36,955 nt of DNA from a virus (lineage: Duplodnaviria; Heunggongvirae; Uroviricota; Caudoviricetes): the IMG/VR virus record IMGVR_UViG_2513237361_000013; one strand, written 5' to 3'. Below the pieces are notes generated by a model. The model was not told the DNA's origin. It made no database searches and was given only the letters and a program-made list of their open reading frames with translations. A program made the position numbers and the translations under genes. Shown here piece after piece: positions 19,583 to 20,515 of this stretch (position 1 is its first letter; each line of letters starts with the position of its first letter).

Positions 19583-19600
19583 TTATTAAAACTCCTGACA

Positions 19601-19627
19601 ACAAAAAACCCACCGCGAAGTGGGTTT
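19601..19627 (-). terminator. intrinsic terminator-like hairpin just upstream of the tape-measure gene
   Basis: ACCCAC / GTGGGT stem (19610-19615 and 19622-19627), followed on the minus strand by TTTTTTGTTG, about 20 nt before the tape-measure Shine-Dalgarno. Confidence 0.45.
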
Positions 19628-19747
19628 CAGGCGACATAATAGTAGATATAGCGATTACGAGGCCACGCAATGCTTTTCTCCAGGAGCATCATCGATTTAA
19701 TTAAAGACACCATCACATCTCTGTAACAGAGTGTACGTAATTAACAA

Positions 19748-20002
19748 CTACACACACTGCTCCTGAAAATACTGGTCATCCAGTGCAAAGATCACTGCTT
19801 CAAATTCATCGCGCTCAATCAATACCGGATGAGTGGCTAAATATTCATTTATCTCTGTCAGAGATAAAGGCAAAGGCACCCCAGCCATTCCAGCATAACG
19901 TCGGGCACGGGATATTACCGAATAGGCGTACAACAACTCCTTAAGCACCGGGTCTATTTCTGGTTCCGGTATCGGTGGCAACCTGAGTTTTTCCGCTTCC
20001 AT
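19748..20002 (-). CDS. small protein in gpT position (function uncertain)
   Basis: 84 aa with its own ATG and a purine-rich GGGGGAAAAGG Shine-Dalgarno. It is in the same frame as the upstream chaperone, separated by TAG plus 48 nt. Confidence 0.5.
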   Translation of the reverse strand: MEAEKLRLPPIPEPEIDPVLKELLYAYSVISRARRYAGMAGVPLPLSLTEINEYLATHPVLIERDEFEAVIFALDDQYFQEQCV

Positions 20003-20053
20003 CTTGCCTTTTCCCCCTTTCTCCCCCGAACTCCGATAACCACCGCTGGGCAG

Positions 20054-20515
20054 CTATGGCTTTTTTATCGTATCCTGCTTCTGCTGCTCTTTACCCTGGG
20101 CGATGCTGGCTGCTTCTGCAAGGATCTGCCAGTACAAATCTGGATTCTGCTTAAGCAGCGCGATCCCTCGTTCTGCCGTATATTCCAGTGCAACCTCAAC
20201 ACCATTAACCAGTTCACCAACCCCTTTCCAGTCTTTCAGCAGATAACGAGCGGCATTATCAATGAGTAAATCATCAACAGAATCCACCTCGGAAACCTTT
20301 GAAATATCAAACTCCTTCGTTCCGACGTGCAAACTGGCATCCATTTTCTCAATGTGGCGACGGATTAATGCATTACGGGAGCGATACTGATCGTTATCGC
20401 TGCTTGCCACCAACAGTTTTAACCCGTCTACAGGTTTTAAGTCCTTCATTGGCGTAAACCAGCGTTCTCCACCAATGAGAATTTTCTGATTAAGAATAAA
20501 CATCCATAACCTCAT
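20054..20515 (-). CDS. tail assembly chaperone (gpG-like)
   Basis: 153 aa, acidic, in the position between the major tail protein and the tape measure. An A-AAA-AAG heptamer lies immediately before its stop. Confidence 0.6.
   Translation of the reverse strand: MRLWMFILNQKILIGGERWFTPMKDLKPVDGLKLLVASSDNDQYRSRNALIRRHIEKMDASLHVGTKEFDISKVSEVDSVDDLLIDNAARYLLKDWKGVGELVNGVEVALEYTAERGIALLKQNPDLYWQILAEAASIAQGKEQQKQDTIKKP

What the first reader, a model, noticed from the sequence alone, without database searches (positions are those of the whole stretch)
19583..20056. Unusual chaperone/tape-measure junction: in-frame amber, slippery heptamer, 165-bp gap with terminator
The gpG-like gene ends with A-AAA-AAG followed by TAG, but the ORF in the gpT position is in the same frame (48 nt after the stop) rather than the -1 frame. 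The -1 frame closes after 39 codons, so a canonical G-GT frameshift fusion is not encoded as it stands. The downstream ORF has its own strong Shine-Dalgarno. Between it and the tape-measure gene is a 165-bp spacer containing a terminator-like hairpin, atypical for a lambda-like tail operon.
Basis: seen in the sequence. Interest (0 to 1): 0.4.

Follow-up and report, generated by a model that had tools for sequence, protein, structure and literature searches.

The report
Broken tail-chaperone frameshift site, defective prophage
The odd-looking junction is an ordinary lambda-type tail-chaperone frameshift site (G/GT) of a Rac-like prophage, put out of register in this one strain by two single-base deletions; the spacer with its terminator hairpin is a normal feature of this phage family.

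Summary
The description is accurate. On the minus strand the G-like gene (YdaY family) ends A_AAA_AAG-CCA-TAG. An 84-codon ORF follows in the same frame, the -1 frame closes after 39 codons, and a 165-nt spacer with a terminator-like hairpin precedes the tape-measure gene.

It is not a new arrangement. Relatives carry two extra bases just after the heptamer: G6 where the window has G5, and GCGAGAAAAA where it has GCGGAAAAA. With these, the T domain sits in the -1 frame, open from the heptamer, giving a 252-aa GT fusion. The canonical junction is an exact match in 989 of 1068 matching complete E. coli genomes and has the canonical length in 52 of 52 IMG/VR hits. The window's version is in none. 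The -1 linker is under purifying selection: 59/47/158 substitutions by codon position.

The window comes from Escherichia sp. TW09308. Its prophage is defective: gpK, gpI and most of gpJ are replaced, and two more frameshifting indels lie nearby. An assembly of a separate sequencing run is 100% identical, so the deletions are probably real.

The T-to-tape-measure spacer is a variable cargo slot (38 to 1783 nt). A hairpin plus T-run precedes the tape-measure ribosome-binding site in 14 of the 15 size classes. Low interest.

The parts
20564..21526 (-). Major tail tube protein gene, immediately upstream of G
   Evidence: Pfam Phage_tube_2, E 9e-32; phrog_290. Annotated 'phage tail tube protein' in relatives.
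20054..20503 (-). G-like tail assembly chaperone gene (YdaY family), 149 codons plus TAG. An alternative upstream ATG lies at 20515.
   Evidence: phrog_313 'tail assembly chaperone', E 4e-46, matching only profile positions 13-149 of 258. PF27119 Phage_YdaY on the identical gene in L152. In relatives L130-L137 the upstream ATG is followed by a stop, so the start is the ATG of MFILNQ.
20060..20066 (-). Slippery heptamer A_AAA_AAG, in the -1 frameshift phase
   Evidence: Phase 2 relative to the G start. Conserved in phase in 10 of 11 species-level loci. The eleventh (Raoultella) has G GGA AAG by eye in the printed junction. The two phage relatives also carry A_AAA_AAG in phase. The scripts located it in phase in 72 of 80 IMG/VR loci; three of the remaining eight were read by eye and show it too.
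20054..20056 (-). TAG stop codon of G (context Pro-UAG-C)
   Evidence: The zero-frame stop falls 10, 28 or about 118 nt after the start of the heptamer in relatives, so its position is not conserved.
20013..20017 (-). Lesion 1: G5 run where relatives have G6 (a 1-nt deletion in the GT linker)
   Evidence: Alignment A1. Gap at window 20017 against three reference prophages. The G5-only variant occurs in 13 complete E. coli genomes.
19993..19994 (-). Lesion 2: GCG^GAAAAA where relatives have GCGAGAAAAA (a 1-nt deletion). It creates the in-frame ATG-led 84-codon ORF.
   Evidence: Alignment A1. Gap at window 19993. The double-deletion junction is found in 0 of 1060 matching E. coli genomes and in no IMG/VR or JGI metagenome contig.
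19941..20060 (-). What a -1 slip would now give: 39 codons, of which the first 16 (AIAAQRWLSEFGGERG) are the authentic linker and the rest is out-of-frame sequence, then TAA
   Evidence: The extension is AIAAQRWLSEFGGERG followed by KRQDGSGKTQVATDTGTRNRPGA. The product matches phrog_313 only over the G part.
19748..20002 (-). T-domain coding sequence, displaced into the G frame. It reads as an 84-codon ORF; authentic T sequence runs from EKLRLPPIPEPE onward.
   Evidence: phrog_1189, E 7e-37; weak Pfam Phage_TAC_18. In relatives the same residues form the C-terminus of the 252-aa -1 fusion, which covers phrog_313 positions 20-246 of 258.
19583..19747 (-). Non-coding spacer between T and the tape-measure gene: the empty form of a variable cargo (moron) slot
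   Evidence: 163-165 nt in Escherichia and Shigella. 38-39 nt, or 485-1783 nt with cargo ORFs, in other relatives. No Rfam family. No sigma-70-like promoter on the gene strand.
19599..19628 (-). Intrinsic-terminator-like hairpin (GAAACCCAC-TTCGCG-GTGGGTTT) plus T-run, ending a few bases before the tape-measure Shine-Dalgarno
   Evidence: An equivalent hairpin plus T-run with an unrelated sequence sits at the same place in 14 of the 15 spacer size classes (14 plus the 530-nt Klebsiella spacer). Loops vary and stems are kept.
16349..19582 (-). Tape measure protein gene (1077 codons), with Shine-Dalgarno AGGAG at 19596..19592
   Evidence: Pfam TMP_2 E 1e-81, Tape_meas_lam_C, TMP_4; phrog_24.

Best explanation
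This is the tail assembly chaperone locus of a Rac-like siphovirus prophage. It normally works exactly as in lambda. Most ribosomes translate G (YdaY family) to its stop. A few per cent slip -1 on A_AAA_AAG and continue into the T domain, making a G-T fusion that links the tape-measure protein to the tail tube protein.

In this strain (Escherichia sp. TW09308) two 1-nt deletions lie 24 nt apart in the polypurine linker just after the heptamer. They moved the T domain from the -1 frame into the G frame. As a result:

- a -1 slip now gives a 39-residue dead end;
- the T domain appears as an ATG-led 84-codon ORF behind the G stop;
- no GT fusion can be made by frameshifting.

The prophage is already defective, because gpK, gpI and two thirds of gpJ are replaced. 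The lesion is therefore best read as neutral decay.

The 165-nt spacer is the empty state of a variable cargo slot between T and the tape-measure gene. The hairpin plus T-run in front of the tape-measure ribosome-binding site is a near-constant of the family.

Shown: the lesions, the canonical state of relatives, selection on the -1 frame, the defective state of the prophage, and the conservation of the slot and hairpin.

Inferred: that frameshifting actually occurs, at a low rate as in lambda; that the deletions are neutral decay; and what the hairpin does. My guess for the hairpin is partial termination or protection of the 3' end of the upstream tube and chaperone message, which would lower expression of the low-copy tape-measure and tip genes.
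For: 1. Two extra bases in relatives. The alignment of the junction with K-12 Rac, E. coli 201609, Salmonella phage SPF_0923 and EcoS-606R9 shows G6 versus G5 and an extra A. With these bases, the -1 frame from the heptamer runs 104 codons through the T domain, giving a 252-aa fusion.

2. Population counts. The canonical 93-nt junction is an exact match in 989 of 1068 matching complete E. coli genomes. The G5-only form is in 13. The window's form is in 0. It is also absent from IMG/VR and JGI metagenomes. All 52 IMG/VR matches to a length-tolerant pattern have the canonical length.

3. Deeper relatives. An in-phase A_AAA_AAG with a 100-117-codon -1 extension carrying T is found in Shigella, E. 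ruysiae, four Citrobacter species, Siccibacter, Dryocola, Klebsiella phage 5 and a Flyfo siphovirus. Raoultella has G GGA AAG instead.

4. Selection on the -1 frame. Over the first 35 codons after the heptamer, substitutions against eight diverged relatives fall 59/47/158 by codon position of the -1 frame. Amino-acid identity is 25-30 of 35 in that frame for the seven most diverged relatives, against 7-12 of 34 in the other two frames.

5. Profile coverage. The canonical fusion covers phrog_313 positions 20-246 of 258. G alone, or the window's -1 product, covers only 13-149.

6. Decay context. Over 19.1 kb the window differs from its closest E. coli prophage (E275a) by 32 substitutions and 4 indels. 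All four indels are absent from the three reference prophages compared and all are frameshifting: two in the GT linker, one fusing two head-tail genes, one in trkG. gpK, gpI and the N-terminal part of gpJ are replaced by about 6.6 kb of unrelated DNA.

7. Real rather than artefact. A Logan assembly of run SRR29904084 is 100% identical over 6255 nt, including three of the lesions. The 84-aa product is the RefSeq protein WP_000387022.1 of Escherichia sp. TW09308.

8. Spacer. Fifteen slot size classes from 38 to 1783 nt were examined, and 14 have a GC-rich hairpin plus T-run about 10-20 nt before the tape-measure ATG. Cargo includes an Ail/Lom outer-membrane protein, a KilA-N protein and a zinc-ribbon membrane protein.

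9. Mechanism of G/GT in lambda, including the 30:1 ratio, G binding the tape measure and T binding the tube protein: PMC5009743, citing Levin 1993 and Xu 2004, 2013, 2014.
Against: - No expression data: frameshifting at this heptamer has not been measured for any member of this family.
- No stimulatory hairpin follows the heptamer (z = 0.40). This also holds for lambda.
- Two of four indels within 24 nt is unlikely by chance (P = 0.015). That could point to selection or to one complex event rather than independent neutral hits. Both deletions lie in a 45-nt polypurine tract, and the G6 to G5 change recurs elsewhere, so a local mutational hotspot is an adequate explanation but is not proven.
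- I could not see the metadata of SRR29904084, so its independence from the reference assembly is inferred, not shown.
- The function proposed for the hairpin is inference only.
Confidence: 0.9

Rival explanations
1. Sequencing or assembly artefact: the strain really has the canonical junction, and the two missing bases (and the other indels) are base-calling errors in low-complexity sequence.
For: Two of the four window-specific indels are length changes of C/G homopolymers of 6-7 bases. The other two sit next to A/T runs. The G5-only form also appears in assemblies of K-12 laboratory derivatives (J53 and the TUM strains), although K-12 MG1655 is canonical. That looks like recurrent homopolymer miscalling or slippage.
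Against: A contig assembled separately from run SRR29904084 is 100% identical over 6255 nt, including both deletions and the C8 run. The 84-aa product has a long-standing RefSeq and UniParc entry for TW09308. The second deletion is not a homopolymer length change.
Confidence: 0.07
2. G and T are now made as two separate proteins. T is translated from the new ATG at 20002 with the purine-rich tract acting as a Shine-Dalgarno, and the two work in trans without recoding.
For: The ORF has an ATG preceded by GGGGGAAAAGG at a usable distance. It retains the whole T domain (phrog_1189, E 7e-37).
Against: The ATG is in frame with T only because of the second deletion. In about 1000 relatives it opens a 20-codon dead-end frame. 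The arrangement is private to one strain. In lambda the covalent G-T link and a balanced G:GT ratio are required (PMC5009743, citing Xu 2013 and 2014). The prophage lacks gpK, gpI and most of gpJ, so no tail could be completed in any case.
Confidence: 0.02
3. Amber readthrough has replaced frameshifting. Occasional decoding of the UAG (context Pro-UAG-C) joins G to the in-frame T domain through a new 17-residue linker and restores a low-level GT.
For: There is no stop codon between the TAG and the T domain. The hypothetical readthrough product covers phrog_313 positions 13-246 of 258 with E 2e-54. From my own knowledge, not tested here: a C-terminal proline and a C after the stop codon are relatively weak termination contexts in E. 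coli.
Against: It is found in one strain only. The conserved linker AIAAQRWLSEFGGERGEKARWKRE is lost. No suppressor tRNA lies in the window. The prophage is defective and carries other frameshifts. The same KKP-TAG context exists in the canonical relatives, where it serves no such purpose.
Confidence: 0.01

Closest known systems
Bacteriophage lambda G/GT tail assembly chaperones with a programmed -1 frameshift (Levin et al. 1993; Xu, Hendrix and Duda 2004, 2013, 2014; reviewed in PMC5009743)
   Same: Position between the major tail gene and the tape-measure gene. A small G ORF with an in-phase slippery heptamer near its 3' end. In relatives, a T domain in the -1 frame that is open from the heptamer. 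No strong stimulatory structure. One relative (Raoultella) has G GGA AAG, which from my own knowledge is lambda's own heptamer.
   Different: No detectable sequence similarity to lambda G or T themselves; the matches are to the families phrog_313, PF27119 Phage_YdaY and Phage_TAC_18. The usual heptamer is A_AAA_AAG. In this window the T domain has been knocked out of the -1 frame by two deletions. T is followed by a spacer with a terminator hairpin instead of abutting the tape-measure gene.
E. coli K-12 Rac prophage remnant ydaY - ynaA (tmpR)
   Same: 99.7% identical DNA across the junction and spacer. The K-12 copy has the canonical G6 plus A junction and the same 165-nt spacer and hairpin.
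   Different: In K-12, G (ydaY) is truncated at its N-terminus and the tape-measure gene is cut short; ydaY is described there as a pseudogene (PMC5811629). The window has full-length G and tape-measure genes but a broken GT linker.
A_AAA_AAG -1 frameshifting in E. coli dnaX (own knowledge)
   Same: Identical heptamer. From my own knowledge, slippage is favoured because E. coli's only lysine tRNA pairs poorly with AAG.
   Different: From my own knowledge, dnaX uses an upstream Shine-Dalgarno-like element and a downstream hairpin to reach about 50% efficiency. No comparable downstream structure was found here, so a low efficiency as in lambda is expected.
Morons of lambdoid phages: accessory genes inserted between conserved late genes, typically with their own terminator (Hendrix and co-workers; own knowledge)
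   Same: The T-to-tape-measure interval varies from 38 to 1783 nt among close relatives. It holds unrelated cargo (an Ail/Lom outer-membrane protein, a KilA-N protein, secreted and membrane proteins) and is closed by a terminator-like hairpin.
   Different: In the window the slot is empty: 165 nt with no ORF of note and no promoter match on the gene strand. A hairpin is present even in the shortest (38-39 nt) slots, so it belongs to the operon and not only to the cargo.

Membership tests
G/GT tail assembly chaperone pair with programmed -1 frameshift (Xu et al. 2004 type) | Two short reading frames located between the major tail (tube) gene and the tape-measure gene | tested here: met
   Tube gene 20564..21526, G 20054..20503, T 19748..20002, tape-measure gene 16349..19582, all on the minus strand.
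G/GT tail assembly chaperone pair with programmed -1 frameshift (Xu et al. 2004 type) | Slippery heptamer X_XXY_YYZ in the correct phase near the 3' end of G | tested here: met
   A_AAA_AAG at 20066..20060, phase 2. Conserved across genera.
G/GT tail assembly chaperone pair with programmed -1 frameshift (Xu et al. 2004 type) | The T reading frame lies in the -1 frame relative to G and is open from the heptamer | tested here: not met
   In the window T is in frame 0 and the -1 frame closes after 39 codons. The feature is met in relatives: 989 of 1068 matching E. coli genomes have the exact canonical junction, and all diverged loci examined have the -1 extension. The window copy is a disrupted member.
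G/GT tail assembly chaperone pair with programmed -1 frameshift (Xu et al. 2004 type) | Sequence membership in recognised tail-assembly-chaperone families | tested here: met
   G: phrog_313, E 4e-46, and PF27119 Phage_YdaY. T: phrog_1189, E 7e-37, plus Pfam Phage_TAC_18 below its cut-off (21 bits against 27).
G/GT tail assembly chaperone pair with programmed -1 frameshift (Xu et al. 2004 type) | Evidence that the -1 frame after the heptamer is translated | tested here: met
   For the family, not the window. Substitutions fall 59/47/158 by -1-frame codon position. Amino-acid identity is 25-32 of 35 in the -1 frame; for the seven most diverged relatives it is 25-30 against 7-12 of 34 in the other frames.
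G/GT tail assembly chaperone pair with programmed -1 frameshift (Xu et al. 2004 type) | Two products, G and GT, made at a fixed low ratio and both required for tail assembly | not testable with these tools
   Needs protein or ribosome-profiling data. The lambda values come from PMC5009743.
Programmed stop-codon (amber) readthrough | In-frame extension behind a single stop codon with no further stops | tested here: met
   17 sense codons lie between the TAG and the ATG of the T ORF.
Programmed stop-codon (amber) readthrough | The arrangement is conserved among relatives, with selection on the extension in the zero frame | tested here: not met
   Found in 0 of 1060 matching E. coli genomes and in no IMG/VR or metagenome contig. 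In relatives, selection acts on the -1 frame.
Moron / accessory-gene slot in a lambdoid late operon | Interval of variable length and unrelated content between two conserved genes in close relatives | tested here: met
   Fifteen spacer size classes from 38 to 1783 nt: 14 plus the 530-nt Klebsiella phage 5 spacer. Cargo identified.
Moron / accessory-gene slot in a lambdoid late operon | Terminator at the downstream end of the slot | tested here: met
   Hairpin plus T-run in the window, and in 14 of the 15 size classes including the 530-nt Klebsiella phage 5 spacer. The 669-nt class (L149) folds no clear hairpin there.
Moron / accessory-gene slot in a lambdoid late operon | Own promoter and a cargo gene in this window | tested here: not met
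   No sigma-70-like site on the gene strand. By my own reading, only a 27-codon ORF lies in the 165 nt. The window's slot is empty.

The most novel reading that the evidence does not exclude
The two deletions are not pure decay. They converted a frameshift-dependent GT into a readthrough-dependent GT (Pro-UAG-C, in-frame T), or into separately translated G and T proteins. That would be a natural example of one recoding mechanism being swapped for another in a tail-chaperone locus. The only hint in its favour is the clustering of the two deletions (P = 0.015).
Probability: 0.03. Interest if true: 0.5.

Novelty: already known. Interest (0 to 1): 0.1.

Why it matters
It matters little as biology: a well-understood recoding site has decayed in a dead prophage. 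There are three practical points.

- **Annotation gap.** The G/GT frameshift of the very common Rac-like prophages, present in about one fifth of complete E. coli genomes, is not annotated in the six RefSeq and GenBank records examined. G is named 'protein YdaY' after the truncated K-12 remnant. The T domain is either missing or called as a 61-77-residue hypothetical protein.
- **Caution for scans.** An in-frame 'T' ORF behind a slippery heptamer can result from two small indels. Comparison with relatives should come before any recoding hypothesis.
- **A testable side feature.** The T-to-tape-measure junction in this family is a cargo slot that usually ends in a terminator-like hairpin in front of the tape-measure gene. 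This offers a modest, testable case of intra-operon expression control.

Tried and rejected
- **Rfam scan of 19400..20200 at E up to 1**: only a 24-nt terminator-like match to the 3' end of sroH (14.7 bits against a gathering score of 80). No known RNA family.
- **Frameshift-stimulating structure after the heptamer**: the fold is no better than shuffled sequence (z = 0.40).
- **Promoter scan**: nothing on the gene strand in the spacer, so there is no support for an independently transcribed small RNA or moron here. The whole spacer folds somewhat better than shuffles (z = -2.3), largely because of the terminator hairpin.
- **BLAST of the 165-nt spacer against the cargo-bearing spacers of relatives**: no meaningful similarity, so the spacer is not an obvious deletion remnant of those cargoes.
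- **tRNA scan of the window for a suppressor tRNA**: none.
- **Literature search on ydaY**: it is mentioned only as a Rac pseudogene or phage protein. I found nothing on its frameshift.
- **Exact-pattern searches for the window's junction** in IMG/VR and JGI metagenomes: no hits.
- **Not pursued:** structure prediction and remote-homology searches, since family assignment was already clear from the profiles and synteny.
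Full report
**1. What is in the sequence**

All genes in this part of the window are on the minus strand. The order is:

- a tail tube gene, 20564..21526 (Phage_tube_2);
- a 149-153-codon ORF, 20054..20503/20515, which matches the tail-assembly-chaperone family phrog_313;
- an 84-codon ORF, 19748..20002 (phrog_1189; weak Phage_TAC_18);
- a 165-nt gap, 19583..19747;
- a 1077-codon tape-measure gene, 16349..19582.

The first ORF ends ...GAT ACG ATA AAA AAG CCA TAG. The heptamer A_AAA_AAG (20066..20060) is in the X_XXY_YYZ phase, and the -1 frame entered there closes after 39 codons. 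The 84-codon ORF is in the same frame as the chaperone gene. The gap contains a 10-pair hairpin followed by a T-rich run on the gene strand, at 19628..19605. The tape-measure AGGAG and ATG follow directly.

**2. What relatives show**

The 1.1-kb region matches about 1075 of 5426 complete E. coli genomes at 95-100% identity. These include the Rac remnant of K-12, where the genes are called ydaY and ynaA. It also matches several phage records.

An alignment of the junction with K-12 Rac, E. coli 201609, Salmonella phage SPF_0923 and Escherichia phage EcoS-606R9 shows that they all carry two bases the window lacks. Both lie within 24 nt in a polypurine tract just after the heptamer: GAAAGGGGGGAAAA against the window's GAAAGGGGGAAAA, and GCGAGAAAAAC against GCGGAAAAAC.

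With these two bases the -1 frame from the heptamer reads AIAAQRWLSEFGGERGEKARWKREKLRLPPIPEPEIDPVLKELL... It runs 104 codons to the stop that ends the window's 84-codon ORF. This gives a 252-residue G-T fusion. That fusion covers positions 20-246 of the 258-position phrog_313 profile. G alone covers only 13-149.

**3. How common each form is**

| Junction form (91-93 nt query) | Exact matches in complete E. coli genomes |
|---|---|
| Canonical (G6 plus A) | 989 of 1068 |
| G5 only | 13 |
| Window (G5, A missing) | 0 of 1060 |

The window's form also has no exact match in IMG/VR or the JGI metagenome contigs. A length-tolerant pattern found 52 IMG/VR contigs, all of canonical length.

**4. Deeper relatives**

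Eleven loci from one-genome-per-species contigs and 80 IMG/VR loci were examined.

- Shigella flexneri, E. ruysiae, four Citrobacter species, Siccibacter, Dryocola, Klebsiella phage 5 LV-2017 and a Flyfo siphovirus all have A_AAA_AAG in phase, with a 100-117-codon -1 extension carrying the T domain.
- A Raoultella locus has G GGA AAG at the same place. From my own knowledge this is lambda's own slippery sequence.
- The zero-frame stop wanders: 10, 28 or about 118 nt after the start of the heptamer. That is expected if only the -1 continuation matters.
- Over the first 35 codons after the heptamer, substitutions against eight diverged relatives fall 59/47/158 by codon position of the -1 frame. 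Amino-acid identity for the seven most diverged relatives is 25-30 of 35 in that frame, against 7-12 of 34 in the other two.

The -1 frame is therefore translated and under purifying selection. This is the lambda G/GT arrangement. In lambda, G and the G part of GT bind the tape-measure protein, T binds the tube protein, and a ratio of about 30:1 is needed (PMC5009743). No stimulatory hairpin follows the heptamer.

**5. Why the window differs**

The window's 84-residue product is the RefSeq protein WP_000387022.1 of Escherichia sp. TW09308, carried on a 4.81-Mb contig.

Over 19.1 kb the window differs from its closest E. coli prophage (strain E275a) by 32 substitutions and 4 indels. All four indels are absent from the three reference prophages compared and all are frameshifting:

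- the two deletions in the GT linker;
- a C7 to C8 change at 22717 that fuses two head-tail genes into the 259-codon ORF 22323..23102;
- a deletion at 33671 inside trkG.

Beyond the gpL homologue (15320..16018) the phage sequence stops at 15286, 28 nt into gpK. It resumes only at about 8693, inside gpJ. About 6.6 kb of unrelated genes lie in between: an AraC-type regulator, an IbrA/IbrB-like PAPS reductase pair and a solute-binding protein. The prophage cannot build a tail tip, so loss of GT costs nothing. An indel-to-substitution ratio of 1:8 appears consistent with unconstrained decay (my own judgement, not tested here).

A contig assembled independently by Logan from run SRR29904084 is 100% identical to window 16748..23002, including three of the lesions. 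I therefore consider the deletions real rather than base-calling errors, but I could not inspect reads or run metadata.

Two of four indels falling within 24 nt has a chance probability of 0.015. Both lie in a 45-nt polypurine tract, and the G6 to G5 change recurs in 13 other genomes. A local mutational hotspot is the simplest explanation.

**6. Consequences in this strain**

- A -1 slip yields G plus 16 authentic linker residues plus 23 out-of-frame residues.
- The T domain can be reached only by reading through the TAG or by independent initiation at the ATG at 20002.
- That ATG is in frame with T only because of the second deletion. In relatives it opens a 20-codon dead end.
- The 'Shine-Dalgarno' in front of it is the coding sequence for ...GGERGEKA... 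in relatives.
- No suppressor tRNA is encoded in the window.

I rate functional readthrough or trans-acting T as very unlikely, about 3% together.

**7. The spacer and hairpin**

The interval between the T stop and the tape-measure ATG takes several sizes:

| Spacer length | Where |
|---|---|
| 163-165 nt | Escherichia and Shigella |
| 38-39 nt | some IMG/VR contigs (and similarly short in the Flyfo phage) |
| 485-1783 nt | other relatives |

The long versions carry unrelated cargo:

- an Ail/Lom-type outer-membrane beta-barrel protein;
- a KilA-N protein;
- a zinc-ribbon membrane protein;
- small secreted or membrane proteins;
- a 188-residue protein on the opposite strand.

Fourteen of the fifteen size classes examined, including the shortest, have a GC-rich hairpin followed by a T-run, ending roughly 10-20 nt before the tape-measure ATG. 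The exception is the 669-nt class (L149). The stem sequences are unrelated between classes. Within one class the loop varies (TCT, ATC, CCC, ACC) while the stem is kept.

The spacer with a terminator is therefore the family norm. It marks a moron-type cargo slot that is empty in the window. Rfam finds no RNA family there, there is no promoter match on the gene strand, and the spacer shares no similarity with the cargo-bearing spacers.

What the hairpin does is inferred only. The upstream products (tube protein, chaperone) are needed in far higher copy number than the downstream tape-measure and tip proteins. Partial termination, or protection of the upstream message's 3' end, are the most likely roles.

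**8. Verdict**

That check shows a canonical G/GT -1 frameshift site disabled by two private single-base deletions in a defective Rac-like prophage. This is a known kind of feature in a decayed state, so it is of low interest.

By-products worth recording are listed under 'noticed in passing'. The main ones are the missing GT annotation across this very common prophage family and the conserved hairpin and cargo slot before the tape-measure gene.

Noticed in passing
window 22710..22725 (minus-strand gene; ORF 22323..23102): A run of eight G on the gene strand (C8 on the plus strand), where relatives have seven, removes the TAATG stop/start overlap between two head-tail genes. These are a 131-aa 'protein singed' and a 127-aa hypothetical protein. 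They become one 259-codon ORF. The exact 259-aa product is on 48 public contigs, and the C8 form is in 3 of 734 matching complete E. coli genomes. A homopolymer at a gene junction that recurrently flips between separate and fused products could be sporadic slippage or something used by the phage.
   Followed up: partly
window 33671 (inside trkG; ORF 32358..33584 is the truncated remainder): A 1-nt deletion, absent from the three reference prophages compared, lies inside the prophage-borne trkG potassium transporter gene. The gene is 1458 nt in relatives. This leaves a 408-codon ORF from a downstream start.
   Followed up: partly
window 8694..15285: The tail genes gpK and gpI and roughly the first 665 codons of gpJ are replaced by about 6.6 kb of unrelated DNA. 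It encodes an AraC-type regulator, an IbrA-like PAPS reductase with DUF3440 plus neighbouring ORFs annotated IbrB-like in E. coli, and a periplasmic solute-binding protein. The best E. coli matches are only 88-93% identical, and none covers more than 45%. The gpJ remnant stays open in one frame down to 7206. No lom gene is visible between J and the tail fibre gene.
   Followed up: partly
L003, L004, L005, L006, L073 (RefSeq) and L001, L002 (GenBank phage records): None of these records annotates the G-T frameshift product. G is called 'protein YdaY' with a 119-codon model that reflects the N-terminally truncated K-12 remnant. The T domain is either unannotated or called as a 61-77-residue hypothetical protein starting at an internal codon. 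phrog_1189 collects such fragments.
   Followed up: partly
L115, L123, L125, L126, L138, L144, L145, L147, L148, L149, L008 (interval between T and the tape-measure gene): The same intergenic slot carries different cargo in different relatives: an Ail/Lom-type outer-membrane protein (178-185 aa), a KilA-N protein, an 85-86-aa zinc-ribbon membrane protein, 117-152-aa secreted or membrane proteins, and a 188-aa protein on the opposite strand.
   Followed up: partly
L018 (Raoultella sp. BIGb0138), around 3440..3490: This relative has G GGA AAG in place of A_AAA_AAG at the homologous position, with the same conserved -1 linker. It is a natural swap between two slippery sequences.
   Followed up: no
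L130-L137 (IMG/VR), end of the G gene: The G stop TAG is TTG in these prophages, so G is 36 codons longer in the zero frame. The heptamer and the -1 T frame are unchanged. In the same loci the upstream ATG (MRL...) is followed by a stop, which fixes the true G start at MFILNQ/MFILEQ.
   Followed up: partly
E. coli genomes H80-H91: The G5-only form of the linker appears in 13 complete genomes. These include several K-12 laboratory derivatives (J53 and the TUM strains), although K-12 MG1655 is canonical. This is either recurrent slippage in the G6 run or homopolymer miscalls in those assemblies.
   Followed up: no
window 19655..19738 (minus strand): By my own reading of the minus strand, a 27-codon ORF (MVSLIKSMMLLEKSIAWPRNRYIYYYVA) lies inside the 165-nt spacer and ends about 27 nt before the terminator hairpin. 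It has no convincing Shine-Dalgarno. The spacer is almost invariant among the Escherichia relatives, so selection on it could not be judged.
   Followed up: no
window 1915..2868 (+): An omptin-family outer-membrane protease gene (Pfam Omptin, E 2e-129) lies beyond the tail fibre end of the prophage.
   Followed up: no
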